DNA of 64,000 bases from Azolla caroliniana (lineage: Eukaryota > Plantae > Polypodiophyta). Both the position numbers and the translations under genes were made by a program. Each line of letters opens with the position of its first letter. Within the stretch, counting starts at the first letter, position 1. The stretch covers positions 8,060,001-8,124,000 of the forward strand of contig JBHGNT010000002.1 of assembly GCA_043228905.1 (NCBI GenBank), given 5' to 3'. The notes below the pieces were generated by a model. The model had not been told where the DNA came from. It worked only from the letters and a program-made list of their open reading frames with translations, and searched no databases. This document shows, one piece after another, positions 19,647-61,693 of this stretch.

Positions 19647-21525
19647 AGGACTTTATCAAAACCATTGGCTTTGTGGAATGCACAAAACCATGTGTTATCT
19701 CCTTCTCTAGGATACACCTTCAATTACTCCCTTGAGTAATTGGGTCAAGGAATCGTTGTTGCGTAGGGGACTTAATATAGGGTCGAGTAGAGCCGAACAA
19801 TTACACGATAGATGATCAAGATCGATTTGCACTTACGACTTATCAATAATAGAATTGAAAGTACAGATTAAGATGAAACAAACACATAGGTGACCCCAAA
19901 AGTATTTGTATTGATTACTGCATATATCGGTTACAAAGAGAATACAAGCTGACTATATATCTGTTACTTTCTCTCTAAACAACATACATATATCTATATT
20001 CTCCCCCCTCCTTCTGCTGCTCAATTGATTTATATATAGCATATTCTCTCCTTATTCTTGGCCTTTATTCCCGGTTGTTTGTATTCCGTTTTTCCTCCCT
20101 TGGCTGCCAGTGCTCGGGTCAATTCTCCTTTTTATACTGACCTACTCTCCTCTTTTTTAAGATTCATTTCACACCTCCTGCCTTTTGTCCCACGAATAAA
20201 ACCATGGGCTTCCAATTGAACCTATGGTTTTTGTGCATGCCACAAAGCCAGTGGTTTTGATAAACTAACCATAGTTATCCTTAAAGTAACCATGGTTTAC
20301 ATGGGTTCAAGGTACTATATAAGACCCTAGTAGGGCTTGTGTATAAGGGCAGGTTATTTTGTGGGATCATTGTCATTCTTGAGCGAGCAAGCTCAACTTG
20401 GGCCGAACCGGCTAAGGAACTCGAGAGCCGGATCGGATGGAGACCGATCGACTAGGCCTAGATTAGTTGAAGAAACCAAGAGCCGGATTGGATGAAGACC
20501 AATCGGCTAGGCTGAGTCAAATAGAATCTAACAGACCATTAGGGGCATATATTCCTATTTTAGTAAATAGGAATATTATAGGTTGTTAGCATCAGGCTCA
20601 ATTAATGAGCATTCAAGTACTTATCAGTCTTTCTAAGACTTGTATAAAGAGTGCTCACTAAGCACATTTTATGTACAGAGCATTATTGTTTCAATACGAC
20701 TCTTTTTTGTTTGTTCTCTCTCAGTCTCTCTCTCATATAGTGTATCTCCATTCTCTATGTATACCTATTTGTTGTCCAAATAACCAACTGAGTACCTTGT
20801 GTTTTCCACAATGCTTCCACACATCATCTTTTACATGGTATTAGAGTGTGAGGGTTAAAAGAATCCTCTATTGTCGACACAACGAACAAGACAGAGACAA
20901 GCTTTCTTCTTTCGGAAAAGAAAAGACAGGAACATGATCAGAGGTATAGGTAGCTCACTTCCAACAGAGAAGCTTGACAGGAGCAACTACACATCTTGGT
21001 CATACAAGATGCACCAATACCTGCTCGGGCACGGATACTAGAGTTATGTCGAATGAGCTAATGATGCAAAACTAGGTTTGACACACAGAGATTTTCTAGC
21101 CTGGGAACAACCGGCAATCAGACTCCTTTACTGCTTCGCATCTAGTGTGAGTGACCAACTATTGAGCTACATCCAGGATGCCAAAACGCCGAAGCATGCT
21201 TGGGGAAATCTGAAGAAGATTTTCGCCACAAGCACCACAACCAGAAAACTATAGCTCAGAGCGGAGCTTAGTAATGTCCGATAGAGAGATATGTTGGTGG
21301 CTGATTACACCTCCAAAATCAAGGGGATCTGCGACTCGCTCGGGTCTATCAACGTGACGGTTGAAGAAGATGAGATGGTGCAGGTCTGACTCAAAGGTTT
21401 GGCACAAAATTTTGGATCATTCCGAACGGTGGTTTAAATCATGAGAGAGAATACCCCATCCTTCTTTGAGCTACAATCAATGCTTCTCGTTGAAGAGAAC
21501 CACAAGGGTGTGTCGACGAGCACGT
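19647..21525 (+). pseudogene. gag: Copia 5' LTR remnant (to 20835), tRNA-iMet PBS (20836-20847) and gag pseudogene (from 20934)
   Basis: ...TTACA|TGGTATTAGAG, then EKLDRSNYTSWSYKMHQYLLGHG and SFFELQSMLLVEENH with stops. Confidence 0.8.
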
Positions 21526-21826
21526 TGTTGTGCCTTTTGGCGCCGGATCGTTGCATGAGTCGGGTGGGAACCGTCGCGGTTTTGGACTACGAGGAAGAAG
21601 AATTTGAGACGGTTTTAGTTATGAATATGAATCGATTATAAGAAAGAGAGATTGAAACTTGTGAATCCCACAAGTATATTGTATTAGATTAATCAATATT
21701 AAGATAAGAATATGAGGATAAGGATATAGAAACCCCGTGAATCACATGAGGAAGTAATTGTGGCTAATTCTGCACTCTTCCGTCGCATGCTTTCGCAAGT
21801 GCTTTCACGATTGGACTATGTCCTCG

Positions 21827-24800
21827 TGACAGGAACACACGCTCCTAATGAATAATGCTCGGCCACAACCGAGCCTAGGATAAAACACAGAAAAACAGAT
21901 AATGAACGCACGACGCAGTGAAGAGAAGAGTACACAGGATGTTAACGTGGAAAACCCAAACTAGGGAAAAACCACGGCAGCCCACAGACTGCAAACTATC
22001 ACTATATCAGAATGTACAATAGTAGAGCACCGAGGCAACGACCTCAAGCTTGCTATCTTCGCCACAGGCGGCGGTTACGACAGAGGCAACGACCTCTTCT
22101 TCTCTCTCTCTCTCTCTGTACATTGTTACGCGCTCTAATCTTGCGCCAACAAGAATGACCACAACAACATCACTAAGTTTGCCCTAAGTCATATTTATAC
22201 TAATATGACTTTTCGGCTATTTACAAATATAGCCCTGATGAACTCTCAGAAACATATTTACGAATATGTCCCTTCATCCGGTGAGCACTCCTCACCGAGC
22301 CTGCATCATCCGGCGCTTGTCGAGCACTCATCATCCGGTTCTCACCGGGTCTTCCGTTTCTGGGTACTCCTCATCCGGTTCTCACCGGGTCATCCCATCC
22401 GGAGGGACCTGTTTCCTAACAAACTCCCCCTTCACTCTGGCACGGGATGTCTTAGTAGTTCGACCCGCTTCCGACATGCATCCAGCTTGTCAGATGTCAG
22501 TACTTTGGTCAGCATATCTGACCCGTTCTCGGCCGTGTGGATCTTCGTCAGCGCGAACTCCTGGTCATCTACTCTTTCCTGGATCCAGTGATACCTACGC
22601 TGGATATGCTTCGTCCGGGAATGGTAGGCCGCATTCTTAGCAAGGTGGATGGCACTTTGACTGTCGCAATAGAGCCGGTATTCATCTTGCCGGATACCAA
22701 GCTCTCCGATGAAGTCCTTCATCCATAATATTTCCTTGCCGGCTTCCACAGTCACCATGTACTCCGCCTCCGTGGTTGACAACGCAACCGTCTTCTGCAG
22801 CCTCGACTGCCATGAAACAGCTCCCCCAACATATGTCATTACATACCTGGATGTAGACCACCTGGTATCCACATCAGCCGACATGTCCGAATCCGTAAAA
22901 CCGTCAAGTTGAAGTTTACTAGAGCCAAATCAGAGACACATATTTGAAGTGCCCTTCAAGTACCGGAGTATCCATTTGACCGCGTTCCAGTGCTCCTTGT
23001 AGGGATTGCTCATAAACCGGCTCACCACTCCGACTGCGTATCCTATATCCGGTCGGGTACACACCATTGCGTACATTAAGCTCCCGACGGCTGAGGCATA
23101 TGGAACCTTCATCATATCAGCCTTCTCAGCTTTCGTCTTCGGGCTTTGCTTACCGGATAACCTGTAGTTTGCCGGAAGTGTCGATCCGGCCGGTTTCGCA
23201 TCTAACATGTTGAACCGCTGAACCACCTTTGTCACGTACTTCTCCTGTGACAGCCACAATTGCTTAATTGACCGGTTCCGGATAATATGCATCCCCAACA
23301 TCTGTCTTGCCGGACCCAAGTCTTTCATTGTGAAGGTCCGGTTGAGAGCCTTCTTCAGCATCCGTATTCTGGCTTCGTTCCGTCTGACGATCAACATGTC
23401 GTCCACGTATAGAAGGAGTATCAAGAAGTCGCCTCCTTCGAACTTCTTCACAAACACACAGTGAACGGCCTGCGTCTTGTGGTACCCTTGATCGGTCATG
23501 AAAGAGTTGAACTTCCGGTACCATTGCCAGGGAGCCTGCTTCAGTCCGTACAGGCTCTTCTTCAACCGGCAAACCAATTGCTCCTTCCCTTTCTCCACGA
23601 ATCCTTCTGGTTGTTGCATGTAGATCTCCTCTTCGAGGTCACCGTGAAGGAATGTTGTCTTCACGTCTAGTTGCTCTACCTCAAGGTCTATGCTTGCCGC
23701 TATACTCAGCACCGTCCGGATGGAGGTCATCTTTACTACTGGGGCAAATATCTCGTCGAAGTCCACGCCCTTCTTCTGCTGGAACCCCTTCACCACGATC
23801 CTGGCTTTGTATCTTGGGGGGTTGCCGGCATCTCCTTGTTTCAACTTGTACACCCACTTGTTTTGGAGTGTCCGCTTTCCTTTCGGCAACTCCACCAATT
23901 CGTACGTATGGTTCTCATGCAGGGAATCCATCTCATCTTGCACGTCACTTAACCATTTTCGATTGTGGGTGTCATCCTTCGCTTCTTCGAAGCTTTCTGG
24001 CTCCCCATCATCGGTTAGTAGCACATGCCCTGCATTCGGAAATCTCTGGGGGGCCCTTCTCTCTCTGAGAGGATATCTCCGTCTTTGGGCTTCGCTAACC
24101 GGCTCCTCCATTTGCTCTTCATCCGAATCTGATTCGGGGTCTTGGCCGGTTCTGGTTTTAGCTTCCTCTACTTCTTCTTTTGCCGGTTCGGTATCCTCAC
24201 CGTAACCGGCTGGTTCCTCGAGTGCTAACCGGTCTCTTGCCGGTTGGGTCTGCTCATCGTAGAATCGATCCTTACCGGTCGACTCGGAGTTCATATCTTC
24301 TTCTCTGACTCCTAGTCGGCGAGCGTCTTGTCCTCCATGAAGATAATATCTCGACTCCGGAATACCTTCTTGTCGACCAGGTTCCACACTCAGTAGCCGA
24401 ACTCATCGTCGCCGTAACCGAGGAATATGCATGGTCGGGTCTTCGGATCTAGTTTTCCTCTCCGGTCCTTAGCTATATGCACATACGCAAGACACCCGAA
24501 TACCGTCAGATGCTGGTAGGACATTTCCTTACCGGTCCAGACTCTCTGTGACGTGTCTCCGTCCAAGGGTACTGAGGGTGATCTGTTTATCACATATGTC
24601 GCCATTGACAGTGCCTCAACCCAGAACTTCTTGGGTAGTTTTGCATGCGCCAGCATACTCCGGACCCTTTCCATTATGGTCCGGTTCATCCTCTCGGTCA
24701 TCCCGTTTAGTTCCGGCGTCTTCGGCACGGTAAATTCGAGCCAGATTCCCTTCGAGTGACAATACTCCTCGAACTGCCCCCGGTATTCACCTCCGTTATG

Positions 24801-26958
24801 TGCTCGAACCGCCTTCAGCTTCTGGCCGGTTTCTCTTTCCACTCTCGCGTGGAGCTCTTTGAAGACGGATAACACCTCATCCTTCGTCTTCAACGGTGTG
24901 GCCCACAGCTTCCGGCTGTGATCATCTATGAACGTCACGAAGTACTGCGATCCGGCATGTGACTTCGTGTCCACTTGACATACATCAGTATGCACCAACT
25001 CCAGTGGTGCATTACGTCTCATCGGTGGCCTCGATCAGAAGGAGGTTCGGTTTTGTTTACCGGTCAGACAATCAGTGCACTTCTCCAAGTGCACGTTCTT
25101 CACTGGAATAAGGTTGTCGTCTGCAAGCCTGTTCATCCCCTTCTCGCTCATGTGACACAACCTCTTGTGCCACAGCTCACCGGCAGTGTTGGATGCTACG
25201 TTCACTTCTTCCGGGCATAACTGGGCATTCATCAGGTACAACGTGTTTACCTTCCGGGCCCGAGCCACAATCAGGCTCCCTTTGTTGAACTTCATAACAC
25301 CGTTCCGGATGCTACTAGTGTAGCCTTCATCATCTAGTTGACCGGCTGATATGAGGTTTAGACGAACCTCCGGAACGTGTCGGACATCCTTCAGCAGCAT
25401 CTTGCATCCGGTTGGTGTTGTCAACCACACGTCTCCTATGCCGACAATTCGGCATGTACCTTCATTCCCCATCCGGACACAACCGTGACTATCAACTCTT
25501 CTTCACTTGCCGCGATTGTCGTCGTTCCCTTCCGGTCCGGCCCCCTCCGGTCTTTACCGTTCCGCTTCGATGTCCGCTTCGAATCGGAACCGTCGGTTTC
25601 CTTGTCTTTTCGGAAATGCCGACAGTTTTTCTGGAAGTGTCCCGGCTTGTAGAAGCAAGTAGGCCTCCGCCTTGAGTTTGACCGTGTCCCCGACTTCTCC
25701 CGGTTCTGGGGACTACGGTTCATTTGTCTTCCGCGTTCCGATTCGGTAAGGATCGCTTTGGAGTCGGAGCTCGTATCCTTATCTTTCTGACGCGCCTCCT
25801 CATCTAGCAAGCTCGACTTCACTCTTGCTAGGGATAACCGTTTCCCTTCCGGCCCGGCATTGCCCAAAGTGACAACCAACGTCTCCCAGCTATCCGGGAG
25901 GGAACCGAGCAGGAGTAGCGCTAGTACCTCATCGGCGAGAGGTACTTCCAATGATGTTGCCTGGTGTATCAGCCCCTGGAAGGCATTCATGTGCTCCGCC
26001 ATGATGGAGCCATCTTGGTACCGGAGTCTTACTAGCTTCCGGAATACTGAAACCTAGTTAACAACATTTTTGTTCTGAAACATAATGTTGATCTTCTCCC
26101 AGAGCTCATGAGCCTTGCTCTCTTCATTGAAGTTGTTGTATAGACTCATGTCGATGAAGCATCCTATGTATGCCGTTGTCTTTATGTGCATCACCTCCCA
26201 TATCGTGGCGTCGATTTTGTCCGGTCTCTTGTGCCCGAACTGAACCGGCAGCCAAAGATCTTTAACCACAAGCATGTCCCTCATCTTCGAATTCCACACG
26301 GAATAGTTGGAGCTGGTGAGCTTGAACATGCCTCCTAACGATTCGTCCATTTTCTCTGTCGTTTCGCTCTGATACCACTTTGATAGGAACACACGCTCCC
26401 GATGAACAACGCTCGGCCACAACCGAGCCTAGGATAAAACACAGAAAAACAGATAATGAACGCATGACGTAGTGAAGAGAAGAGTACACAAGATGTTAAC
26501 GTGTAAAACCCAAACTAGGGAAAAACCATGGCAGCCCACAAACTGCAAACTATCACTATATTAGAATGTACAATAGTAGAGCACCGAGGCAACGACCTCG
26601 AGCTTGCTATCTTCGCCACAGGCGGCGGTTACAACAGAGGCAACGACCTCTTCTTCTCTCTCTTTCTCTCTCTGTACACTGTTACGCGCTCTAATCTGGC
26701 ACCAACAAGAATGACCACAACAACATCACTAAGTTTGCCCTAAGTCATATTTATACTAATATGACTTTTCGGCTATTTACAAATATAGCCCCGATGGACT
26801 CTCAAAAACATATTCCGGTGAGCACTCCTCACCGGGCCTGCATCATCTGGCACTTGCCGGGCACTCATCATCCGGTTCTCACCGGGTCGTCCGTTTCTGG
26901 GTACTCCTCATCCGGTTCTCACCGGGTCATCCCATCCGGAGGGACCTGTTTCCTAACA
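21827..26958 (-). mobile_element. Full-length Ty1/Copia element (Tnt1-like organisation), coding region disrupted
   Basis: LTRs at 21827-22421 and 26381-26958. TSD CCTCG at 21822-21826 and 26959-26963. PBS TGGTATCAGAGC at 26377-26366 and PPT at 22422-22433. Confidence 0.97.
22432..26350 (-). pseudogene. pol: Copia gag-pol (gag, PR remnant, GAG-pre-integrase, integrase, RT, RNase H) with stops and frameshifts
   Basis: LWHKRLCH, LELVHTDV, FIDDHSR, YKARIVVKG, LLYVDDML, LYCDSQSAI, RTKHI; split into at least six ORFs. Confidence 0.93.
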
Positions 26959-29703
26959 CCTCGTTCGATCGTCCCATTTGATTCTAGATTGTATGCCGTG
27001 GTTAATGTCAACTGAACTCCATGTTTAGCGAAGAATTCCCTCGCTTTATCGGAATCAAGTTCTCCCCGATCTGCAATTACTAGTCCTACGCACCCATACC
27101 TGGAGAACACTTCTTCCAAGAGAAATTGGCATTTTGTAGAACATGTTTCTCTTCGTAACCCCTGACCCTCTACTTGGTTTGTCAGATTCCCCCGAGCTAA
27201 CACCAAGTACTTCTTTTGTCCGATCCCTGTTGGCATGGCCACGATGTCGACCATCCATTTGAAATTGATTGTCAATGAGAATGTCAAATGTAATTCATCT
27301 CGGTGTCGAACTCAAGAGTAGATTTGGCATTTCTCACAGCTTCCTGTAAACTCCGCTACATCTTTGTACATATTCTTCCACCAATATTTTTTTTTGATAT
27401 TCTTAAATGTTGCCCGTGTTCCCCGAGGTCGAGCCCAATTGGATTTGTAAAATTCAGATATTATTTGTTTATGTTATTCCTTTCTACCGATTACCCGTAG
27501 TGGTATGCCATCCGGTCTTTTCAGCTCTCCCCAAATTAATCCATTGTCTCAGAAGAACTTGCTGACTTGCCATTTCTTCCATCGAATCTCGGCTCTATTG
27601 TCTTTATGGTCTGATGATTCCTTGATTTCTTGTAGCACCTTCCCGATCAGTAAGCTTTCTCCTTTGTATTCGTCTTCCTGGAACTCCTGAGTTATGTTCA
27701 CCCGAGATATATGCCTCGAGGTAAAGTAATTTTCGGAAACTTCTTCATTATCCGTTTCAGCTACTTAGTCTCCAAACCGTGCTCTTGATAACATATCTGC
27801 TACCGTGTTTTCTTTTCCAGAGATGTGTCGGATATCTGGATTAAGTGACTTTACATATGCAATACATCTTAGCATAGCCACGTCCGGTACCGTGCAACAT
27901 CGCATCATCTCTACTATCGGAAGACAATCCATTTCGATCACTACTTCGGCTCCAATCAAATCATCCTGATCCGATTTTATCGCCGACACAACTCCCCATA
28001 ATTCTCTTTTAACTTGTGCATATATGCATTGCCTTTTGTTTAGAATCTTTGCTCCGAATCGGATCGGATATTGCGAACCATCCGAGTCGACTTGGTTGAT
28101 GACCCATCCGATCCGAATTGGACTTGTATCAACCGTTACTATGATCGGCCGGTCATAGTTTGGCTTCTTAAGTGTTTCAGCCCTCCGTAGTAATTTCTTG
28201 AGCTTCTTCATGGCATTGGTATGTTCCAGCCTCCATTTGAACTTCTTACCCTTCTGCAACAAGTGATAGAGTGGGTCTGCAATATGTGCATAATGTACAA
28301 TCCATATGTGGTAAAATGAACATGCACCAAGAAATCTACGGACTTCGGATTGTAACTCGCATATCTCTTTCATAGCTTGAATCACATCAATCTTGATTGG
28401 CGACGGTCTTCGGCTGTAGGGCCCACATAGATGTCCGACTACCAATATCTCTTCTTGTCCGAATACCGATTTCTCTCCAGAGAGTGTTAGGTGCACATCA
28501 TCTAACTTCCGTAGCACTTTCTCGCAATCGCGAATATGGTCAACTACGAACTTTCGGCATCCTCGATCATCCATAGTCTCATCCTTTTCTTCCACCGCAC
28601 ATCCTTTCATCGAAATGTCGCCTAGGAACGACATTGTTATCTCCGGAATGCAGTCTCAGAGAACCTTGTTCATTGCATTCATCATATGTGCGACCGAGTT
28701 TGTTGCTCCTTGTGGTAGCGTGCACATCCGAACTAATTCTGGCTAGTTGGAATTGGTCATACCCAGAGTATAGGCCTCCAATGGAGTATATCGCGTGTCC
28801 GGAAAATGCTTCTGGAAATTCATCCACTATCGGACCAACTCCAGAGTTTCGGATCGTGACTTTATTCACCAGTTCTAAATCTTGAATGAACCGGAGTGAC
28901 CCATTCTTTTTCGGAACCGTTGTCGTAGTGTATTCCACACACTACGTGAAACCATAAAATAATATATCCGATTTTAGATACATATAAATAAATAAATAAT
29001 ATATCAAAAGAATTTATCACGTGCATAAGGCAGGATTTGAACCATGCACTTCCACGTAGATAAACCCCAACTTTACCATTGTAATAACTTATCTTTAGTG
29101 TTATAAATATAGATTTAATACATATAAGACCTTTATTTACACATACCTTTATTAAAAGGTAAAAATCATGTATTCTTTAGAGTGTGAATATTTTATTTAC
29201 ACGTGACATTAAAAGTGACTCATGCACATCTAGCGTGCATGAGCCCTATATTTAGGAAATGACAAAGCATCACATGCACATTTAGTGTGCATGGACACTT
29301 TAGGTGAAAAAGCATGAAGCCATGCTTAGCCTCTTCCATCTTTATATAAGGAGGAGAGAAATATGTATAAGGTTGTTGATTAATATAGAAGAATTGATCA
29401 ATCTAATATATTCGTGGGATTCACGAATTTTGCCATCTAAATTACTCTTATAATCTAAATATTGTTTTAAAATACACTAAACTCGTGGGATTCACGAGAT
29501 TGCTATCTTACTTCTCTTCCTATTATTCATATCTAGCCTTAAGTTGTATTCCTCTTCCTCCTAGTCCAAAACCTCGGCGGTTCCCACCCGACTCACGCAA
29601 CGATCCAGAGCCGAAAGGCACGACACCGTAAACCATGGATTTGAGTACGGAGCGTTTGATGGCTCTAGAATCCCCATCGCCACCTTTTCTGTGAGTAGTT
29701 CAA

Positions 29704-31115
29704 AGAGGGTTTCGGAACCGATTCCGAAACCGAGAACCGGATTGGAAGACCATCAACCAAGGGCTCGGGAGACTACAACCAAGAAGGGGATTGATGCATC
29801 TACGGTGGAGCAACTATTGAAGGAGATGGAGAATTTGAAGATCGCGATGGTGAAGAAGTCGGATGACCGCCCCAGAAGCTCCAAGTATACGGACCGACGG
29901 TGCATATGGTGCGATAGCGCCAAACACGATCGGAGGGATTGCGACGAGCATAAGGAGGCGCTACGGCGGGATCTCATCTACCACGAGGGAAACCGGATTC
30001 AATCGATGGACTCTCGGAAGCCACTCCGACCGAACTTCCGGAAAGGCGGCATGAAGAAGGTGCTCGAGGAGAAATTGGCGGCAAGAAGCAACTATGCGAC
30101 AACCGCGGGAATATGTGTCGGGGAATCATCGAGAGCAAAGACGTCTTTTTGGCCGGAAGTTCTAGAAAACACCGAGAAATCCGACTCCAACGAGATCCGA
30201 AGCACCGCAGAAGGCGTCCGGGAAGCTACAGGATGGGAGTGCCCTGTCGACAAGAATAGCGTATATGCCCTGTGTCAATTGCATAAGGTGTATGTGGACA
30301 AGAAACGACGACGCACGGAGGATGCGGCCAGGCCATCGAAGATACCGGAAAGCTGGAACTCCGGAGGTAAGGGAAAAGAAAAGGCGACTCCGGCATTCAA
30401 GCTCGCCTCGGACATAGAACAACAAACCGACTTGAAAAGAGTGTTCGAGGAAAGAATCTTGCATAGCCGAGTAGATTTCTCACTTCGGGAGCTACTCGGA
30501 ATAGCAAAGAAGGAGTTCCACGATCTTCTCGTGGATCTCGTGAAGCGAAAAAGACAAAGTACGGAGGAAAATGCTCCAAGGGTGAATGCGAACACCGTTT
30601 TAATGATCGACACCGAAGTGGAGGACGAAATTCCGAACTCCCACTATACAAGGCCACATTGGGCACGCGCGACTACGGAGACTCCGGTCCGAATCGGCAA
30701 CATCAAAGAACCCGTGCTAGCATTGATTGATCACGGATCGGAGATCAACTTGATGTCCAAGGAGTTCTACCGGAAGGGGAAGTGGCCTATTAACACCAAC
30801 CATGGATGGAAGATTCGGGCGGCCACCAAAGCAACGGAAGATCTATTTGCGGCTTGTCCGGATGTGACGGTGAAGATCGGGGATGTCGAGATCGACCAAA
30901 ATTTCTTCGTGCAAGATGAGGTTTCACATTCCGTCATCCTCGGCCAACCCTTTATCATGCCTTCACGGATGGAGACGAAGGTGCTCGATAGCGGTGCGGC
31001 TTTTGCGCGAATTCGGAGCCAAAACGGTGGGAAATCCGTCCAATTCCTAACGGTGCCGGCAAATCACGAAAGGAACAAGAGGGAACTCTTGTCCCAAGTG
31101 AGAATGGATTTTTAA
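29704..31115 (+). CDS. gag: 5'-truncated Gag-protease ORF
   Basis: Zinc knuckle CIWCDSAKHDRRDC, aspartic protease-like LIDHGSEINLM and VILGQPF. The track's GTG start lies in captured flank DNA. Confidence 0.85.
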
Positions 31116-31169
31116 AGTGGACTGTTGCAGAGTGGGGAAGTGATAGTCCGAGAAGCCCTGATACCCCAC
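31106..31169 (+). promoter_or_regulatory. -1 frameshift signal (G GAT TTT plus H-type pseudoknot)
   Basis: Stem 1 pairs 31119-31128 with 31140-31149. Loop GTGGGG pairs with CCCCAC at 31164-31169. The spacer is 6 nt. Confidence 0.85.
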
Positions 31170-34100
31170 ACAGGAAGAAAACTCTCGGAGCAAAACATGT
31201 ACGAATCGGTCCGGATGGGGCATCTACTTACACGACCGTAACTGGAGGATTGAAGAAAGGATACCGACAAGTGGAGGATAAGTTGCGGTCGGCATCAATA
31301 ATAAAAGAAGATGAAGAAATCGTGGGGATAGTCGAAGAAGTGTTCTATGGGAGCACGCTACAACAACTTGAAGAGCTTGCGGAAGATAAAAGCCAAGGGA
31401 ACCAGGTAGTCCCGGTGGAATCGGTCGAGATGTACGAGATCATTGCGAAAATGGAGCCGGATACGCTCCGCAAAGAAGAAGCAATGGTAAGTATGAAATA
31501 CAAGACCGTGAAGAAGAATGTGAAACCGACCGCGGGACCACTACCCGCCGATAGCGAACAAAAGAGGAAAGAAGTCTCGGGAGATCCGACACTTCGGAAG
31601 TCCGTGGATATCGGACATGCCTTCATGGATGAGACCCGGAAGAAACTTCGGATCGGTGGAGGTGGGTTCCTATTACAAAAAGAAGAAGAACGGTTTCGCG
31701 AGATGTTGGAGCAACACGGCAAAGCGTTTGCATTTACATCAAGGGAGATAGGGTGCGTCGATCCGAGAATAGTGGAGCCGATGGTGATCTTCACGATTGA
31801 CCATGTACCGTGGAACCTGAAGCCGATTCCGGTGCCACGAGCGCATATTCCGAAAGTCATTGACTTGCTCAAGGAGAAGGTGGTGATGGGGATTCTAGAG
31901 CCATCAACTGCTCCGTACTCAAATCGATGGTTTACGGTTCCGAAGAAGAATGGGTCACTTCGATTTATCCAAGACTTGCAACCGGTGAATAAGGTCATGA
32001 TCCGGAACTCGGGAGTCGGTCCGATAGTGGACGAATTTGCGGAAGCTTTTGCCGGTCGTGCGATATACTCCATCGGAGACCTATACTCGGGGTATGACCA
32101 ATTCCAACTAGCCGTGGAGAGCCGAGACATCACAACCATGCGAACACCGATAGGATTAGTCCGAATGTGCACACTACCACAAGGAGCGACAAACTCGGTT
32201 GCTCATATGATGAACGCGATGAACAAGGTGCTTCGAGACTGCATTCCGGAGATAACGATGCCGTTCCTCGATGACAGTCCGATGAAAGGATGCGCGGTAG
32301 AAGAAAAAGATGAGACTATGGATGATCGGGGATGCAGAAAGTTCGTGGTCGACCATATTCATGATTGCGAGAAAGTGTTGCGAAAGCTAGAAGATGTGCA
32401 CCTAACACTTTCCAAGGAGAAATCGGCATTCGGGCAAGAAGAAATATTGGTGGTCAGACATCTATGTGGGCCCTACGGCCGAAGACCGTCACCAACAAAG
32501 ATCGATGCGATTCAAGCTATGGAGGAAGTATGCGAGTCAACATCCGAAGTCCGAAGGTTTCTCGGTGCATGTGCATTCTATCACATATGGATTCCGCACT
32601 ATGCACATATAGCGGACCCGCTCTACCACTTGTTGCGGAAAGGTAAGAAATTCGAATGGAAACCGGAACACACCAAAGCCATGAAGAAATTGAAGAAGAC
32701 ACTTTGGAGGGCGGAAGCACTTAAGAAGCCGAGCTACGACCGACCGATCATAGTAACGGTTGATACAAGTCCAACCGGTATCGGGTGGGTCATAAATCAA
32801 GCCGACTCGGATGGTTCGCTGTATCCGATCCGATTCGGAGCAAAGGTTCTCAACGAAAGGCAACGTGGATATGCACAAGTCAAAAGAGAACTGTGGGGAG
32901 TCGTGTCGGCAATAAAATCGGATCGGGATTATTTGATCGGAGCCGAAGTGGTGATCGAGACGGATTGTCTTCCGATACTCGGGATGATGCGGTGTTGTAT
33001 GATACCAGATGTAGCTATGCTAAGGTGGGTTGCATATGTCAAGTCGCTTAATCCGGAGGTTCGACACATCTCTGGGAAGGAAAACGCGGTAGCGGATATG
33101 TTATCAAGGGCTCGGTTCGGAGACGACATAACCGAATCGGATAATGAAGAAGTTTCCAAAGACTACTTCGCGTCGGAGCACATATGCCGAGTGAACGTAA
33201 TCCGAGAATTCCGGGAAGAAGAATACGAGGGAGAAAGTTTGATGATCGGAAAGATGTTACAAGAGGCCGAGGACTCGACAAACGATAAAGGAAGAAGAGA
33301 CGAGATCCGAAGGAAGAAGAGGCAAGTCCAAAAGTTCTTCTTGGAAAACGGATTAATATGGAGGGCGCCGAAAAGACCGGATGGTATTCCAGTTCGAGTA
33401 GTCGGGACAAAAGAGCAACGAAACCGGATAATGTCTGAGTTTCACGAATCCGATTGGGCTGGACACCGAGGAACATGGGCAACATTTGTGAAGATCAAGC
33501 AAAAATATTGGTGGAAGAAAATGTACAAAGATGTCGCGGAGTTCACGGAAAGCTGCGAGAAACGTCAAGTCTACTCCGGGGTTCGACATCGAGATGAGTT
33601 ACATCCGACATTCTCACCGACAATCAACTTCAAGTGGATGGTTGACAAAGTGGCCATGCTGACCGGGATCGGACAAAAGAAATACTTGGTATTAGCTCGG
33701 AAAGATCTCACGAATCAAGTAGAAGGTCGAGCGCTTCAGAGGAAAACGTGTTCCGCGGTATGCCAATTTCTTTTGGAGGAAGTATTTTGCAGGTACGGGT
33801 GCGTAGGACAAGTGATTGCGGACCGGGGAGAACTCGACTCGGACAAAGCTAGGGGATTCTTCGCCAAACACGGAGTTCAGTTATCACTAACAACGGCATA
33901 CAATCCGGAGGCCAACGGGAAAATCGAACGAGGACATAGTCCGATCGTGAAAGCACTTGCGAAGGCATGCGATGGAAAGGTGAAGGACTGGCCGCAGATG
34001 CTTCCGTATGCACTATGGGCGGATCGGACGACGCATAGCTCCATAACCGGTTACATGCCGGCAGAACTCATGACCGGACAAGCACCGGTAATGCCGACAG

Positions 34101-36654: not shown

Positions 36655-37010
36655 AGAGTTGGATCGGAGTGAATCCGACTCTAGAAAGAACAAAGACAGA
36701 CCTTCGGAAACGAAGTTCGAGTAAGCCAAGAGGGCCCTAAAATTGGCAAACGAGAAGTTACGCCGATCAACCCGATGAAAGATTCCCATGAAGCGGTATG
36801 GTTATAACGAGGATATGGCGCATCATTATGCATACATGATGAAAGTGACGAAAGTGCGTGAGCTAGAGAGCTACGCCGAAGCGGCAAAAGATGCAAATTG
36901 GCGTGTCGCAATGGAGGAAGAGATGTGAGTGCTAACGGAGAATGAGACTTGGGACCTGATTGACATCCCTAAGGACGTGGAGCCGATCGGATGTAGGTGG
37001 GTGTACAAGA
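36655..37010 (+). pseudogene. Copia INT-RT linker and RT N-terminus
   Basis: ESYAEAAKDANWRVAMEEEM*..ENETWDLID..PIGCRWVYK. Confidence 0.85.
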
Positions 37011-43620: not shown

Positions 43621-43746
43621 TGTATCCCCCATACATGCATAGTGTGAAAAGGCCAAAACTGGTCTTCCACTTAGAAGTGTGTGGGGAGAGAGTTTGGAGT
43701 GTGTGTGAGTAAAACCCCTCTGAGACATAGTGTGTGAGGTAGAGTA

Positions 43747-44555
43747 TGACGGAAACTACAAGGCTCCTATGCGCAGCGCTCGGCCACAACCGAGCTTAGA
43801 ATCATACACAGAAAACGGGAAATAAATGCACGACACAAAGTAGAGAAAAGTACACTGGATGTTTACGTGGAAAACCCAAACTAAGGGAAAAACCACGGCA
43901 GCCCATAGGCTGCAAACTATCACTATGTTAGAATGTACAACAGTGAGTTCACGGAGGCAACGACCTCGTGCTCACGATCTTCGCCACAGGCGGCGGTTAC
44001 AACCGAGGCAACGACCTCTTCCTCTCTCTCTCACTCTCTGTACACTGTTACACACACTCTCTTCTTACACCAACAAGAAAATACCAACAACCCTCAAAAG
44101 TTTGCCCTAAGTCATATTTATACTAATATGACTTTTCGGTTATTTACAAATATAGCCACGATGGACTCTCAGAAACATATTTACGAATATGTCTCTTCAT
44201 CTGGAGAGCGCTCCTCACCGGGTATGCACCATCCGGCTCTCCGTAGCCGGGTACTCCTCATCCGGTTCTCACCGGGTCTGCACCATCCGGCTCTCCGTAG
44301 CCGGGTACTCCTCATCCGGTTCTCACCGGGTCTGTACCATCCGGCTCTCCGTAGCCAGATACTCCTCATCCAGTTCTCACCGGGTCTGCACCATCCGGTT
44401 CTTCGTAGCCGGGTACTCCTCATCCGGTTCTCACTGGGTATGCACCATCCGGCTCTCCGAAGCTGGGTACTCCTCATCCGGTTTCGGCCAAGGCCGAGTT
44501 TGCTCATCAGCACTGTTCTTCTCCCTTCCCATCCGGAGGGACCTATCTCCCAACA
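43747..44555 (-). mobile_element. Copia solo LTR (family of 21827-26958)
   Basis: TG...CA termini and TSD GAGTA (43742-43746, 44556-44560). Confidence 0.93.
44213..44482. repeat. 54-bp CCGG-rich tandem repeat, five copies, in U3
   Basis: Unit CTCACCGGGTCTGCACCATCCGGCTCTCCGTAGCCGGGTACTCCTCATCCGGTT. Confidence 0.95.
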
Positions 44556-51698: not shown

Positions 51699-51741
<43 letters not shown>

Positions 51742-52955
51742 GTGCGCCTATTTCTGTCCCTCCATCGTTTTCTGTGTTCTATAGCTCATTGGAAAGTTCT
51801 TTCACAGAGCTTTCTAAGGAATGCTTATTTGCTAAATTCGTTTATCGTTGTGAGAAGTTATGAGCATTTTCGTCTGCAACCCTCTTTGCCCTGCGGTTCC
51901 TCAAACTCAAGGTAGATTTTGAAACCCAAAATTGATTGAAAGGTACATTCCACTTCTTCTTTCACTTTATTAATAGTAAATATGCCAAGAGAAGTAAAAT
52001 TCAATGATGATGTGATTGAAAGCCCAAACAATCAAATGCATACTTTGTCAATGGAAAAGATGGTAGCTATGTATATCTCATTGCAAGAGACAGTGATGCA
52101 TAAGCAAAGCGAAATGTATGGTTATAAGGAGAGAGAATTAACTCTTCAACATACAATGGAAATGCAAAAGTTATAGATTAAAGCTTTGTGTGAAGAACTA
52201 CATGCAATGAAGAACATGATTGTTCAAATGCAAGATAATCGGATGCCTGAAATAGAAAGAAAAATGTTGAGTCTTGAAGTAGAAAAAGAGATTTTGGTGA
52301 AGGAAAATGCCGAAATAAAATCTACAATTGAAGGGAAGGAAGATGTGATCATGACAAGGTGGAACGATGTTCTCTTGAAAGAAACACCGAAAATCACGCA
52401 AAGGCATTCTAATACCATGGATATGTTAGATGCAAAGGAGCAATATGAAATCGAAAGAAGAAAGAATAATATTATCATTAGAGGTATGCAAGAGAATGAA
52501 ACAGAGAATGCATTATCTCTTCGAGAGAATATTACGAAATTATTTGAAAATCACTTTGCTATGCAAGATGTTATTGTATATGTCGCACATATGGTTGGCA
52601 AAAAGCAATTAGAGGGAAAGTCATCTCCAACTATTGTTTGTACAATCCTTGATGAACGTAAAAGGGCAATGATTCTAGATAGTAGTAAGGTGTACTTAAA
52701 AGGGACAACTTCTTTTGTAACAGAGGATAGAACTCCACAAGAGCATAATGTAGAAGGCAAGCATATGCATCTAGGAAAGCAAATCAAAAGGCATAACAAA
52801 CAACGACCTATGGGACTATAAGTGCTTTACGATTGAAAGTAATGTTTTGGAATTGTAGAAGATATCCATGGAATAAGGGTTTAGGACTCAATGATGTAGC
52901 TCAAGGTATGGATAGTATATTTTTGGCTGAAACATGGGAGCATGAGGCAAAACGT
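51699..52955 (+). pseudogene. LINE 5' end: (CT)n leader, ORF1 (51982-52821, one stop) and start of ORF2 AP endonuclease
   Basis: Coiled coil plus ERRKNNIIIRG..V.EDRT, then KVMFWNCR..DSIFLAETW, cut by an LTR at 52956. Confidence 0.8.
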
Positions 52956-55515
52956 TGTCATGAAGATTTTCGGCAACAATGTGAAAATTGCGTGGAACAA
53001 GGAAAATCGAGAATGTGCAATGTGCACATGTATGAAAGGAGTGATGGTTACACATATATGTTAGCACGTTAATGTGCATGTGTGATGTGTCTTTAGGTGT
53101 TCATTACACAAGATATAAAAATAAGCCTAGGGCCTAATCGCATACAATGAGATGCAAGTAAGGTTTTGAACCTTACACCTCAACAATAGGAGGCAATTAA
53201 CATACCATTAGGCTAGGTTATTTCCTTTAAAGTTTATTTCTTCATTGTACTTTTCACATAACAGCTCGTACATGAGAGCTTGAATGAGAGACATGGTCAT
53301 CATGCATCACATGCATTTCATGCATTGTATGCATGTCTTACACCCTCCATGCAACATATGCATGGGGGCATCTATATAAGAAGGAAAGGAAGGGAAAGGA
53401 AATCAAGTAATGTATGGAATCAATACCAATAATAATAAATCTTAGTTATCTCATTGGGAATGTGTCTTGTCCCTCAATTTTGAAGTCAATGGTTCAAACT
53501 AGAAATTGGAATTCTCGTCCATATCTATGTATCTACCAATCTATCTTTAATACTTTCTCGCTTGCGCTAGTCCTTCTAGTCCAGAACACTGACGGTTCCA
53601 CTTCATTGTCTTGAACAATCCTTTTGATCCTCCATCACCACTTGCGGACGCACATCGCGACGTTTGGCACATGTGTCACGTGCTTCATGACATCTTTCTG
53701 GTGTGGTAAATATTTTCTCAATATCGCTCTCTCTCTCTCTCTCTCTCTCAATCAACTGACACAAGCATCTTTGACAGCAAGAACGACCCAGTTATAATCC
53801 TAAACGATGGTCTATTCCTTACAAGCACAAGTCACCCAATTCATCCTCCTTGGTCAAAGACCCCGGTGGTCCTGTTCGACCGACCCGCAGGCGCGGATTT
53901 CCGCGACATAAATTTGGTGAACCCGACGTGAAGAACAGCAAGGGAGGATGGTCGGAACTTCGAGTGCTAGAGACTCTAATGATATTCTAGAACAAGGAAT
54001 GGCAAGGATGATGGACCAAATGCTTCAGGAGAGAGACAACGTCACGGGCCTTGATGTTGCCATCGATAGGATCGTGGATACCAACGGATGCTTTGATGGT
54101 AGAGATGTGACACGATACCGTCAAACCTAAGAAACAAAAATGCAGAAAAAGGGTATTCATATGGCAAGACAAGTGACAAGCTTCTCAAGGATTGTAACTT
54201 CATGTCTTTACTCCCGAGTCCTAGAGCTACAAGAGTCCAATCCGGAATGGTCATCTTTCAAACGAAGTTTACTTGAAGAATATGGGTTTGGTGACTCGTC
54301 TCGAATGACGAAGAAAGATTTAATGGACGGGGTGGAGTCTTCTAACAAAGAGTTGAGTGCGAGTGCGACGCTCCACGAGTTCGCGCAAAGATTTGATCGT
54401 TTGCCTACACTTGACAAAACGATTCTTGATTCCAACAAGGTGCTCCTATTTATCAAATTAGTAGGTGAGGAAGATCGAAGAGATCTTGGACTACTCCTAT
54501 TTTTGACAAAACGATTCTTGATTCCAACAAGGTGCTCCTATTTTTGATAAGCGTCGACAATGGGACAACAAGACAAGATCGAGTGTTGCAATTCAGATTG
54601 GCCGACAAGCTTATAACGCAAGACAAGAACCACAAGCCCAAAGACCGAGGGATGTTGAAGTGGTTCAACCCACAGACGAAGCCACAATGGATGAACTTGT
54701 AGACATGCTTTGAGAGATAACAATTTCTCAAATTAGAAAGGAAGAAACTCAAAGTTTTCCGGATCGTCACCTAGACTTTCCCCGTAGGTGTATTTGGTGT
54801 GACTCTTTGGAACACCAGTGGAGAGATTGCTTAGAATTCCAAAATGCCCTTCGACGAGATAACATTTATCTCTCAAACAATCGGATTCACTCCTCAATGA
54901 CACAACGTTGTCGTGAAGATTTTCGTCCATAGGCGGAAACCGGGGTGGAAGGGGCAAGTCGGTGGTGTGCAACATGTGCACATGTATACTAGGATATGGT
55001 GTATAGAAAGAGAGGGGAAAATTTTGTCCCACATTGTAAGGTCCCTCCCTCCTTGGGCTATAAAAGGAAGGGAGGGGTCACTTATGAAGGGGTTGCCTAT
55101 TTTGTGCGAGTAAGGTATACCACTTAGTCTAGGGTTCTCCCTCTTCCCATTTCGTTTTAGGGTTAGGGTTTCGGTTAGGGTTTTCTTCTTGGGTTTCCCT
55201 TTAGGGTTTTCGGATAGTCATTTTGGTGCGGCGACGACGGCCACCATTGTTGTAACCATTCGTTGTTTTAATATAACTTGTTGAGCATCTTGCCTCCACC
55301 GATCCCTCCTTCGATGTCGTGGTCTTATGCTTTCCTCTTCTCCTCTTGAGCTAAGCCTCCATATCATGTCCTATTCTTTCTCCTCCACTCCCTAGTCCAA
55401 GACCCCCGCGGTCCCGCCCCTTCTACACGCACGCGCGCAACAACGCGACAACGTCCTCTCAATACCAACTTCGGCGGAGGAGGTATGAAGAAGTTGATGG
55501 AGGAAATGGAAGAAA
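52956..55515 (+). pseudogene. gag: Gypsy 5' LTR (52956-53908), tRNA-Trp PBS (53915-53932) and gag pseudogene
   Basis: TGTC...CGACA termini; PBS TGGTGAACCCGACGTGAA; FDGRDVTRY, CIWCDSLEH and NFGGGGMKK are homologous to 29704-31115. Confidence 0.85.
54909..55450 (+). mobile_element. Gypsy solo LTR inside gag
   Basis: TGTCG...CGACA termini; TSD ACGT at 54905-54908 and 55451-55454; gag resumes after it. Confidence 0.92.
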
Positions 55516-56178
55516 AAAAAGTAAATAGTGTTTACTATTCCTCATCTGCCGGGATTCGAGCTGGACACGATATGAGAGCCCAAGAATCTCAAGCAGGAGA
55601 ATTTTAACCAATCATATTAAATTAAGTCAAAAAAGGGAAGCTTTGCATGAACGAGGCACTCAAAGCAGAATGTGTTAATCCTAGGGCCAGACAACAGCCT
55701 AACACAGGGTGTCCACTTAAGACACTTCACCAAAGGGTGGTATGGACGAATGACTTACGACACAACGCTTAATTAGACCTTAATTGGTTACTTAGCAATT
55801 TGTAATTAACACGCGTAAGATATAACAATGAATGCAGAACGGTAATGAAAACTGGAAGATTAAGACAATAAGATCTATTAATTATCCGCTCTGATTACAT
55901 TATAACTGGGCCTTTATATAGGTCTCCGGTGCGAAATACCAACCGGCACCTTTACGGGATCGGTCCAGATCCGGATCGGCATACTGATTCCGGTCCGTCC
56001 GTCCACATCTTCTCATATTATTAATATCTATATTAAGATTACTAATTACAACAGTTCCCGAATAAACTATTCCTTTTCACACTCTGATTTGGATCTCCTT
56101 AAGCCTTCTTGCCAGCCGATAACACATGGCACGCCCGTGGGATAGTACCTTGTACGTCGAACCCATTATCTGGCCCTT

Positions 56179-58389: not shown

Positions 58390-59793
58390 GTGTACTATAA
58401 TAGCATTGTGTGCCATGTGGTGGTGGTTAAATGTCCTATTCATAGCCCCAAGATTAACAGAAAGAAGAAATTTAATAATTTTCATTAACAAAGGAAAAAG
58501 AAATTACAATATGTCCCAAGATTGGGATTTAGAAGTTTTAGGTTTACTAAGATTAATAGAAAAGAAAAATTAGCGGTTTTGAGAGATATGGATTCCGTAG
58601 GGAAGATTAGGATTAGGTTATATGAGTATTATGGCTTCCGTAGGGAAGATTAGGGTTTTTGAGTGTTATGGCTTCCGTAGGGAATTTTAGGGTTTATGGG
58701 AGTTATGGCTTCCCTAAGATAAGAGAGTTGAGAAAGACAAGAAAATTAAGATAATATAGAAAGTGCCCCCTAGTGTAGGAAAAAAAATGGAATAAATATC
58801 GAGTTCTCACTTGATCATAGCCTTTCCACTTTTTGTTGCATGGCCTCTACTTTTAGTTGCCTAGCTTTTTCTTTTTGTTGCATGTGACTGTCCACATGAC
58901 CTTTACTTTTTCCATGCACTCTTTCTTTAGTTGCTTGCGTCCACATGGCCTTTACTTTAGTTCTCTTCACTTTACTTTAGTTTGTTGCATGATCCAATCT
59001 TTCGTCCGTCCGCGTCCAAACTCGTCCGGTAGCCGGTTTCGATTTTGCTTGCCGGTCGGTTCCGGTTTCGATTTTGCTTGCCGGCCGGTTCCGGTTCCGG
59101 TTTTGCTTGCCGACCGGTTCCGGTTTGCTTGTCAGTTCTGGTTCTGGTTTTGCTTGCCGGCCGATTCCGGTTTGCTTGCCGGTTTCGGTTCCGGTTTTGC
59201 TTGCCGGCCAGTTTCCAAGTCTAAAACCCGTTCCGGTTCCGGTTTGCTTGCCAGCCGGTTCCGGTTTTGCATACCGGCCGGTTTCCGGATTTGCTTACCG
59301 GACCCGTTTTCCGGATTTGCTTACCAGCCGGTTTCTAGTTTTAGGGAATTTGGCCACCATCATCCATCCTAAACCCTAAACCCTAAACCCGTTCCAGTTC
59401 CGGTTTTGCATACCGGCCGGTTTCCGGATTTGCTTACCGGACCCGTTTTCCGGATTTGCTTACCGGCCGGTTTCCAATTTTAGGGAATTTGGCCACCATC
59501 ATCCATCAAGACAAAGTGGCCAAAGTGCTCTTAGCACAAATGAAAAATGAGGGAGCTCAAGGTGTTTATATAGCCAGGGCCTTAACTTTCCTATCTATGT
59601 GGGATAGTTCTAATTTCTCTATCTAATCAAACTTCATTTTCTCATAACTTGATATGTATTTCTCCATTTTGTATATAGTAAAATACATTTTGAAGCTCTT
59701 GAGTATATCCATCTTTCTATAGTAAGCTACTAATCTAATCTATAATAATTATTTCATTATTTTTTTACATAGTGTGTGAAGATTCACACGACA
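58390..59793 (-). mobile_element. Solo or recombinant LTR related to 37214-38595
   Basis: Starts TGTCGTGTG at 59793. It shares the CCGG-rich array, the ACGGAAGCCATA/AACCCTAA repeats and the ATCCCAATCTTGGGACATATT block. Confidence 0.8.
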
Positions 59794-61693
59794 ACGCTCC
59801 TTGAGCCTGCAACTGGAGAACTACGGCTGAGATTCGGAATGTGTGGCCCCTGATGGTTACTTCTAAGTCCCGTATTAATCCTGTCAGTCGCACCAAGCTT
59901 GTGTCTGCCATTCGGAGCCAGAACGGACATGGCTCCCACTCTTGGATTCCAAGAGCATCGCACGTCCGGAGGCTGATTACATTAACGCCGGAGCCTCTGT
60001 CTATTATCTGTCGAGGAGTTCTTTCCCTTTCACAATGGCAGTAATTGTCGGACTGTTGGTGATCACCACCACCGGTCCCTCCTCCGGATTTGAGAAGAAT
60101 GCCGGAGCCGGTGGTGTTCCGCCTGTCTTCATGCCGGACTTGAGTCCTTCTGTGAATCTTAGTTCTAGCTGCAAGAGTCGTCCTAACAGCAACGTGATCT
60201 GGCATTCCTGCAATACCTGCCATGTCGCGTTTTTGGACTGATTGCCACCGACGAGCTCTTCAGTGTTCTCCTTTTGCTGCGCAAGTTCTGCTACATTTCG
60301 CTCATTTGCCTTTTTCACCCATTCCGTTGCCTGTTTCCGGATGGCCTCTTGTGTCTCCCATTCCGTCGTCTTGCCCTTCGACCTTGTGGTGACCTGCTGT
60401 AGGTCTACGACTTCGGCGACTACGATGTTTACTTTTGGTCGCTTATCATAGCTCTTTGTTGGACATTGATTACTATAATGTCCTTCTTGCTGGCAATAAT
60501 AGCAATATGCTTTCCGAGTATTGTTGGATTCGGCATTGTTTCCTGTACACGGTGGAGGGCTTGAGGTAACCGTGGGGCTCTGGTCCGGTTGGCGGCTTGA
60601 GGCGCCTTTTTCCGGTTCACATGGGTGGCTCCGGTTTTTGAAATGCCGTGTTTTATTAAAGTTCTTTTTGTTGCGGTACCCTTGCCGGAGTTGGTCATCA
60701 TACCTCCCGTAATCTTCCCGTCGTTGGTGATAACCGGGGGAGTGATCCCGGTTGTGATGCTCGTACCGTCCATTGTAATCTTGGTACTTGTCATATCTCT
60801 TGTACCGGTCATAGTTGTCTCGCCGATTGTCGTACTAGACATCCTGTGCCGGTCGATATCGCTCCTCTCGCCGCCAGCGTTCGTCTTCTTCGTCTCGGCT
60901 ACTACGTGGCTCGATTTGCCGTACTAGCGGTGCTTGCCTATTAAATAAGTTATATTCACACCAGTCCATTGTGTGGCTCGTAGATTGGCAGAGTAAGCAG
61001 TGCGTCCGTATGGTGCACTCCAGTGACGAGTGTCCGGAATTCAAGCAGGTCGTACATTGGATTGCTGCCGGAAACGAAGAATTGGTAATGCTCGTTGGAG
61101 GGCTCCCATTGTTAGCCAAGAGCTCGTTTTCTCCATTTCTCTAACCCGGTCGATGACCTGGTCGACGGTGCTTGTGCGAAAGTCGATGACCGTGCATACC
61201 GTTTGTAGAGGTTCCCGGACCGCGGCTAAAAATATAGCCCGCGTTTCATCCTCCGGATGTGCGCGGGTAAGCTGACTGTGCATCCGTTGAAACCGGATGA
61301 CAAACTGCGGGATGCTCTCCCCGGGGTCCTACTGGATGGTATAAAATAAGCCCACCATTTCTCGTTGGTCCACCTCCTTCTGGAAGAAGTGCAAGAATTT
61401 GTCTTTCAGGTCCGCAAAGGTGGTGATGGTGCTGCGATCCTGCGTCCGGTGCCATCTGGCGGCCGGTCCTTCCAATGTCACGCCGAATTCGGCTATCTTA
61501 GATCGTTCCTCTTCTGCCGCGGTTAACCGTTGTGACACATGGTTCGCCTCCCATGGTTTGCCTCCCATGTTTGTCCGGATCATCCCTATCTTTGGAGTAC
61601 TGGAACGGCATGTCGTCGTCTAGTGTCGGTACCCGGGCTGGTGGTGTCGGTGGTCTTTCCTTCTGTTCCATCGACCTCGGAGGTCTTTGCCGG

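What the first reader, a model, noticed from the sequence alone, without database searches (positions are those of the whole stretch)
21522..59797. Gypsy clade with 4-bp target sites always centred on CpG
Seen: LTRs of the TGTCG...CGACA clade are flanked by CCGT (28917 and 35409, both sides) and ACGT (54905 and 55451, both sides). One-sided junctions read ACGT (52952), ACGT (21522), CCGG (37210) and ACGC (59794). All six readable junctions are NCGN, whereas the chromovirus and Copia insertions here have 5-bp TSDs (GTTAT, CCTCG, GAGTA). Inference: the integrase of this clade, which lacks a chromodomain, selects CpG. It may select methylated CpG, which would steer it into existing transposon DNA.
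Basis: partly seen in the sequence, partly recalled or inferred. Interest (0 to 1): 0.75.

Follow-up and report, generated by a model that had tools for sequence, protein, structure and literature searches.

The report
Phygy-like retrotransposons that insert at CpG
These plant jumping genes sit almost only at four-base sites centred on a CG pair, a habit already reported for their moss relatives (Phygy); their integrase likely reads that short site itself, and nothing here shows that it senses methylation.

Summary
All six junctions are LTR ends. For the main family, 227 of 251-254 outer LTR starts follow NCGN, against 3.8% CpG background. Another 20 are CA/TG, as expected from later decay. 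The duplication is 4 bp.

The trait is published: Neumann 2019 lists Phygy (moss non-chromovirus Gypsy) with 4-bp NCGN sites and a tRNA-Trp primer. This family shares both, lacks a chromodomain, and has Physcomitrium, Riccia and Adiantum relatives.

Two additions: the host is likely a fern (one gene tested), and the motif is sharper. None of the 227 CG sites ends in A, against 34% expected, which gives VCGB. Retroviruses with 4-bp duplications avoid the same edge bases.

Methyl-CpG sensing is untested. CpG is 3.3-fold denser in repeats, which explains over half of the shift into transposon DNA: 60% of random positions, 78% of random CpGs and 91% of insertions lie in repeats. The remainder could be selection or methylation.

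The scan noted a similar NCGN pattern earlier in a fungal genome (e1-10582392). Verdict: real, largely known, with a modest refinement.

The parts
28917..28920 (+). left TSD copy CCGT of the young family-A element
28921..29625 (+). 5' LTR, family A (705 bp)
   Evidence: 409 exact LTR starts in the genome
29626..29706 (+). 81-bp copy of the downstream flank (35409-35489, 1 difference) where other copies have the PBS and 5' internal sequence
29565..31115 (+). Gag-protease frame; its first part reads through LTR and duplicated flank; weak DUF4100 hit; Physcomitrium, Riccia and Adiantum homologues
30992..34600 (+). Pol frame: RT, RNase H, integrase; no chromodomain and no second RNase H found
34692..34703 (+). 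polypurine tract
34704..35408 (+). 3' LTR, family A
35409..35412 (+). right TSD copy CCGT
21522..21705 (-). ACGT junction (21522-21525) and 3'-end remnant of an old family-A-like LTR
21740..36670 (-). old decayed relative of family A, in pieces, into which the Copia (21827-26958) and the young family-A element inserted
37210..40889 (+). family B: CCGG junction, LTR 37214-38595, tRNA-Trp PBS from 38600, short internal part, PPT, truncated second LTR from 40402
52952..55620 (+). family D: ACGT junction, LTR 52956-53908, tRNA-Trp PBS from 53915, Gag-like remnant interrupted by the family-C solo LTR
54905..55454 (+). family C solo LTR 54909-55450 with ACGT on both sides
58453..59797 (-). family E LTR (related to B) starting at 59793, junction 59794-59797; its other end is lost
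474..6278 (-). control: chromodomain-bearing Gypsy with 5-bp TSD GTTAT
21822..26963 (-). control: Copia element with 5-bp TSD CCTCG
43742..44560 (.). control: solo LTR related to the Copia LTR, 5-bp TSD GAGTA

Best explanation
These are Phygy-like non-chromovirus Ty3/Gypsy retrotransposons whose 4-bp target duplications centre on CG, and whose integrase likely picks that site by reading the DNA sequence itself rather than its methylation. Shown: 4-bp duplication, about 90% CG today, almost all of the rest CA or TG, and in family A near-exclusion of T at position 1 and A at position 4 (VCGB), with no clear preference outside the four bases. Inferred, by analogy with the foamy-virus intasome: a 4-bp stagger needs a sharp kink at a central pyrimidine-purine step, and base contacts narrow that step to CG and set the edge bases. 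Also inferred: because CpG is 3.3 times denser in repeats than in other DNA here, this rule by itself pushes insertions into transposon DNA. Selection against insertions in genes likely adds the rest. The shorter families B, C and D likely borrow an integrase from autonomous relatives.
For: Genome-wide, 409 exact LTR starts split into CGN 227, HHN 16 (CA 12, TA 2, PPT variants 2), DGN 10 (TG 8, AG 2) and 156 GHN by subtraction, nearly all PPT (155 GGG-NNNN). That gives 227 CG of 251-254 outer starts, against 3.76% CpG in 320 kb of random DNA. CGA before the LTR: 0 of 227, against 34% NCGA in background. T1 or A4: 1 of 100 CG 5' junctions, against 57%. Of 70 insertions with both ends held, 45 have identical 4-mers (44 NCGN), none identical 5-mers, and 66 keep CG in at least one copy (the set was partly chosen for and partly against CG). 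CA/TG share 20 of 247 fits CpG divergence between paired LTRs, 50 of 800 bases. Families C, D, B: CG at 33 of 36, 26 of 35 and 15 of 21 junctions; chromovirus control 2 of 30. CpG per base: 0.052 in repeats, 0.0158 elsewhere. Literature: Phygy NCGN; central YR with T/A disfavoured at the edges, largely chromatin-independent, in 4-bp retroviruses; ZAM integrase binds CGCGCg in vitro; Ginger1 uses CCGG/CCGT. Closest solved structures are the PFV and Ty3 intasomes.
Against: Family-A sites lie in repeats more often (116 of 127, 91%) than random CpGs do (313 of 400, 78%; block bootstrap 67-86%), so sequence alone does not account for everything. The test saw only 1.8 Mb and that database is rich in family-A surroundings. 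No biochemical or methylation data. The integrase model is weak (mean pLDDT 66, pTM 0.38) and names no CG-reading residue. The Ala188-equivalent position of PFV contacts bases outside the duplication, where no preference was seen. Families B-D tolerate T1/A4 (11 of 43), so VCGB is not clade-wide. One apparent non-CG duplication exists (GTGT/GTGT, L083).
Confidence: 0.72

Rival explanations
1. The integrase selects methylated CpG at the cut site, so insertion is steered into silenced DNA without a chromodomain.
For: Residual excess in repeats, 91% against 78% for random CpG. No chromodomain. The elements and their TSDs decay at CpG, which fits methylation after insertion. Retrotransposons can exploit methylation: an MBD-bearing Copia (abstract). 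A 1992 paper on CpG methylation and retroviral integration in vitro was seen as a title only (not held).
Against: CpG density alone gives 60% to 78%. Surviving insertions are filtered by selection. 11 of 127 family-A sites had no repeat hit in the 1.8 Mb searched. Pfam found no methyl-binding domain in Gag or Pol. In the fern Ceratopteris CG methylation covers most features including gene bodies (passages), so if the host is a fern, methyl-CpG would be a poor marker of transposon DNA. CG-rich targeting is known in Drosophila ZAM, and D. melanogaster has lost DNA methylation.
Confidence: 0.13
2. Sequence reading sets the CG site, and a separate tether to heterochromatin sets the region.
For: The same residual excess in repeats. 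Phygy elements are enriched at centromeres in a liverwort (passage).
Against: No tethering domain found. The chromodomain-bearing control is not more repeat-bound (13 of 17, small sample). Selection can give the same pattern.
Confidence: 0.11
3. Only DNA flexibility matters: any central pyrimidine-purine step would do.
For: CG is a YR step, and YR is favoured by 4-bp integrases. The non-CG sites are mostly CA, TG or TA.
Against: CA and TG make up only 20 of 251, usually with CG in the partner copy. The YR enrichment in retroviruses is modest, 63% above random.
Confidence: 0.03
4. The pattern is chance, mis-set LTR boundaries or copies of a few loci.
For: A few loci are duplicated with their flanks (for example L252-L254, L215-L216).
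Against: Junctions were de-duplicated by flank. Nine different NCGN 4-mers occur among matched pairs. Empty-site reads skip 709 bases.
Confidence: 0.01

Closest known systems
Phygy, non-chromovirus Ty3/gypsy clade of Physcomitrium patens (Neumann et al. 2019, PMC6317226; passages and supplementary file 3 read)
   Same: 4-bp NCGN duplication (100% of 186 elements), tRNA-Trp primer (81%), no chromodomain, no extra domain, coding region filling the interior. Gag-protease has 21 P. patens homologues among the best 120 hits.
   Different: Host is likely a fern, whereas Phygy was described as specific to P. patens. Family A is about 7.1 kb against 7656-9968 bp. In an unrooted protease-region tree the family lies outside the branch holding the Physcomitrium, Riccia and Adiantum proteins. 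The VCGB edge rule was not in the text or file that I saw.
Retroviruses with 4-bp duplications: PFV, MoMLV, PERV, XMRV (Serrao et al. 2015, PMC4422553; passages and section 6 read)
   Same: Central YR step; T and A disfavoured at the first and last duplicated base; closest solved integrase structures.
   Different: Their preference is weak (YR 63% above random) and not CG-specific; here CG is about 90% and was likely near-total at insertion.
Ginger1 DNA transposons (Bao et al. 2010, PMC2836005; passages read)
   Same: Gypsy-type integrase, TGT termini, 4-bp CG-centred duplications (CCGG 75%, CCGT/ACGG 24%), all of which fit VCGB.
   Different: DNA transposons of animals with inverted repeats; favour CCGG, whereas family A favours ACGT (29 of 100 CG 5' junctions). 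Kinship of the integrases was not tested.
ZAM/Tirant errantiviruses of Drosophila (Faye et al. 2008, PMC2527525, abstract; Nefedova and Kim review, PMC5408687, passages)
   Same: Gypsy integrase with intrinsic preference for a CG-rich palindrome.
   Different: Target is CGCGCg or CGCG, a longer alternating motif, in an insect.
CopiaMBD of arthropods (de Mendoza et al. 2019, PMC6673714; abstract read)
   Same: Precedent for a retrotransposon using methyl-CpG to choose regions.
   Different: Uses a captured MBD domain; none was found here.

Membership tests
Ty3/Gypsy LTR retrotransposon | LTRs with PBS and PPT; domain order RT, RNase H, integrase | tested here: met
   the window's own copy has lost its PBS
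Phygy | 4-bp TSD of form NCGN | tested here: met
Phygy | PBS complementary to tRNA-Trp | tested here: met
   the PBS complement matches host genes called tRNA-Trp(CCA) by ARAGORN in 6 of 6 loci
Phygy | no chromodomain and no additional (archaeal-type) RNase H | tested here: met
   Pfam on the 1202-aa Pol frame found neither, while the window's chromovirus scored Chromo
Phygy | polyprotein domains fall inside the REXdb Phygy clade | tested here: inconclusive
   No labelled Phygy reference was available. P. patens proteins are close homologues but sit in a neighbouring branch of an unrooted, quick-search protease-region tree of 106 rows. Filed as Phygy-like, not as Phygy in the strict sense.
Phygy | described range: P. 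patens only, 7656-9968 bp (descriptive; the paper calls size a weak classifier) | tested here: not met
   host likely a fern; family A about 7.1 kb
TatI (4-bp TSD, tRNA-Trp) | additional RNase H domain (100% of TatI) | tested here: not met
Selgy | tRNA-Ala PBS | tested here: not met
Chromovirus (Tcn1 and others) | C-terminal chromodomain | tested here: not met
Methylation-reading retrotransposon (CopiaMBD type) | encoded methyl-CpG-binding domain | tested here: not met
Methylation-reading retrotransposon (CopiaMBD type) | preference for methylated over unmethylated target DNA | not testable with these tools
   no methylome or assay available

The most novel reading that the evidence does not exclude
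A land-plant Gypsy lineage spanning mosses, liverworts and ferns has an integrase that recognises 5-methyl-CpG at the cut site itself, so it finds silenced DNA with neither a chromodomain nor a methyl-binding domain.
Probability: 0.13. Interest if true: 0.78.

Novelty: new member of a known kind. Interest (0 to 1): 0.33.

Why it matters
Almost all plant LTR retrotransposons insert without sequence preference, and Phygy is the stated exception (Neumann 2019). This window shows the exception in a second plant lineage, with hundreds of copies and a sharper rule (VCGB in family A). That makes it a good system for asking how an integrase reads a dinucleotide. It also shows that a plain CpG preference can bias insertion toward transposon DNA where repeats are the CpG-rich fraction. 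If the integrase did read the methyl group, that would be a new way to target the epigenome, but this is untested.

Tried and rejected
- Mis-set boundaries or a 5-bp duplication: rejected (0 of 70 pairs identical as 5-mers; reads skip 709).
- A longer motif outside the duplication: none clear in 12 flanking positions (193 junctions).
- TatI, Selgy and chromovirus identity: rejected.
- ESM Atlas gave only generic RT/integrase clusters.
- AlphaFold model too weak to name contacts; Foldseek only confirmed the intasome fold.
- Metagenome relatives (80 loci) are mostly collapsed contigs. Five outer junctions that surfaced at repeat edges were all NCGN (L097, L120 twice, L130, L141; read by eye), not a systematic count.
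- Sequencing runs held at most 0.41 of the words, so they could not test the 81-bp duplication or give true empty alleles. No methylome was found.
- The careful tree did not finish; the quick tree has no outgroup and dropped 27 of the 132 candidate proteins as too short or unmatched.
- Papers that added nothing: PMC4522978, PMC13469084, PMC8282616 (passages). PMC49326 is not held.
- Literature searches: NCGN + retrotransposon gave 2 papers, only Neumann relevant; Phygy + fern gave 3, none on target sites in the two read; fern genome + LTR retrotransposon + TSD + non-chromovirus gave 0; integrase + methylated CpG + integration site selection + retrotransposon gave 4, none on Phygy by listing.
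Full report
What the window is. A stack of nested LTR retrotransposons at G000:C2:8060001-8124000 in a 523-Mb genome. Random stretches hold land-plant genes (KCS, PPR, LRR). For one KCS protein the highest identities among named hits are ferns: Ceratopteris 78% over 76% of the query and Adiantum 73% over 89%, against 47-68% for the seed plants, liverworts and alga among the 120 listed. The host is therefore likely a fern; this rests on one gene.

Observation. All cited 4-mers are in place and each junction is an LTR end. Family A is the two-LTR element 28921-35408 with CCGT on both sides, inserted into an older relative on the other strand. An uninterrupted paralogue in the window carries the site once, and 230 reads of run X23 skip 709 bases, the 705-bp LTR plus 4. 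Families B (37214) and D (52956) have LTRs followed by the same PBS. C (54909) is a solo LTR whose genomic copies carry that PBS. E (59793) is related to B. 21526 is the 3' end of an old A-like LTR. The 5-bp controls are as described. Six of six by chance is about 3-5e-9.

Genome-wide test. A 25-base family-A LTR start occurs 409 times. The three bases before it are CGN 227 times, HHN 16 (CA 12, TA 2, two PPT variants) and DGN 10 (TG 8, AG 2). That leaves 156 GHN, nearly all the PPT of 3' LTRs (155 GGG-NNNN). Removing PPT sides leaves 251-254 outer starts: 227 CG (89-90%) and 20 CA or TG. Background CpG is 3.76% per base in 40 random 8-kb stretches. Of 70 insertions with both ends held, 45 have identical 4-mers (44 NCGN, one GTGT), none has identical 5-mers, and 66 keep CG in at least one copy. 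That set was partly chosen for CG (L301-360) and partly against it (L061-086, L287-300). Paired LTRs differ at 50 of 800 CpG bases and 9 of 9097 A/T bases (20 pairs; the classing overstates the contrast). The CA/TG share of 20 of 247 is thus about what decay after insertion gives, so specificity at insertion was likely close to complete. Families C, D and B show CG at 33 of 36, 26 of 35 and 15 of 21 junctions. The chromovirus control shows it at 2 of 30.

A sharper motif. No family-A LTR start is preceded by CGA (0 of 227), though NCGA is 34% of background CpG sites. Among 100 CG 5' junctions only one has T first or A last, against 57% expected, and its partner copy reads CCGT. ACGT is 29 of 100 against 5.4%. 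The 12 positions outside the duplication show no clear bias. Families B-D are looser: 11 of 43.

What it is. The Pol frame has RT, RNase H and integrase, with no chromodomain and no extra RNase H. The PBS is complementary to host tRNA-Trp(CCA). Neumann et al. 2019 (PMC6317226; passages; supplementary file 3) state that Phygy elements prefer NCGN and tabulate 186 elements with 4-bp NCGN duplications, tRNA-Trp primers in 81%, and 7656-9968 bp. Named homologues are Riccia and Adiantum for RT-RNase H and 21 P. patens proteins among the best 120 for Gag-protease. In a quick unrooted tree of 106 protease-region rows the window family lies outside the branch holding the moss, Riccia and Adiantum proteins. 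Family A is about 7.1 kb. It works like Phygy; strict membership is not shown.

Mechanism. Shown: 4-bp stagger, central CG, edge rule. Inferred: the closest solved structures are PFV and Ty3 intasomes. Serrao et al. 2015 (PMC4422553; passages and section 6) report that 4-bp viruses favour a central YR step, disfavour T and A at the two edges, and do so largely independently of chromatin, with PFV Arg329 contacting the edge bases. The same geometry plus tighter base contacts would give VCGB. The position aligned to PFV Ala188 is acidic in all 18 aligned integrases (Glu 17, Asp 1), and the C-terminal domain has a conserved loop. These are candidates only; the model is weak. ZAM (abstract) and Ginger1 (passages) show that Gypsy-type integrases can target CG-containing sites.

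Methylation and steering. With a 1.82-Mb database, the 100 bases next to the site hit a repeat for 116 of 127 family-A junctions, 313 of 400 random CpGs, 240 of 400 random positions and 13 of 17 chromovirus junctions. The bootstrap range for random CpGs is 67-86%. CpG is 0.052 per base in repeats and 0.0158 elsewhere. Choosing CpG therefore supplies 18 of the 31 points of shift into transposon DNA. The remaining excess is against my reading. It could come from selection, from a database rich in family-A surroundings, from a tether, or from methyl sensing, and these data cannot separate them. In Ceratopteris CG methylation covers most features, genes included (PMC9477723; passages), which would make methyl-CpG a blunt marker of transposons in a fern.

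Novelty. The core trait is in print. I did not find the fern occurrence, the VCGB rule or any methylation test in the searches. Most subscription papers are not searched, and Neumann's per-element table was not seen. The scan noted an NCGN pattern in a fungal genome (e1-10582392; unchecked AI note), which gave the Ginger1 lead. Verdict: real, a new member of a known kind, interest 0.33. The methyl-reading case has probability 0.13 and would deserve 0.78.

Noticed in passing
window 29626-29706: Behind the 5' LTR lies an 81-bp copy of the downstream flank (35409-35489, 1 difference). The PBS and about 660 bp of 5' internal sequence present in L312 and L350 are missing. It may be repair copied from the 3' end of the element, or an assembly error. 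The copy also differs from its relatives at several conserved integrase positions.
   Followed up: partly
window 37214-40889, 52956-55620, 54909-55450; loci L167-L256: Families B, C and D share the PBS, PPT and LTR termini. In B and C the LTR-to-LTR distance is often only 3.2-4.1 kb and no Pol match was found in the window copies, so they are likely non-autonomous.
   Followed up: partly
G000:C8:17.80-17.82 Mb and C16:4.99-5.11 Mb: Clusters and tandem arrays of matches to the tRNA-Trp 3' end (64 matches in the genome); the six loci checked hold tRNA-Trp genes, three in L401.
   Followed up: partly
random loci L361-L400: Non-repeat DNA is CpG-depleted (observed/expected 0.47) while repeats are not (0.97), the reverse of the usual expectation for methylated transposons.
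   Followed up: no
L076, L320, L344: Tandem partial duplications of family-A LTR starts, in L320 and L344 repeating the junction bases.
   Followed up: no
L322, L335, L339, L341, L352: The 3' TSD copy reads A where the 5' copy reads G at the first position. This would fit decay at the CAG context formed with the LTR end, or recombination between copies.
   Followed up: no
window 7237-7529: Degenerate 13/27-bp tandem repeat containing AAACCCTA units.
   Followed up: no
window 44160-44537: 54-bp tandem repeat inside the solo Copia-type LTR 43747-44555.
   Followed up: no
window 46956-49424: Long imperfect inverted repeat (about 840-bp arms, 71% identity), possibly a decayed DNA transposon.
   Followed up: no
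window 8140-11991: A second old minus-strand relative of family A with both outer ends lost, so no TSD can be read.
   Followed up: partly
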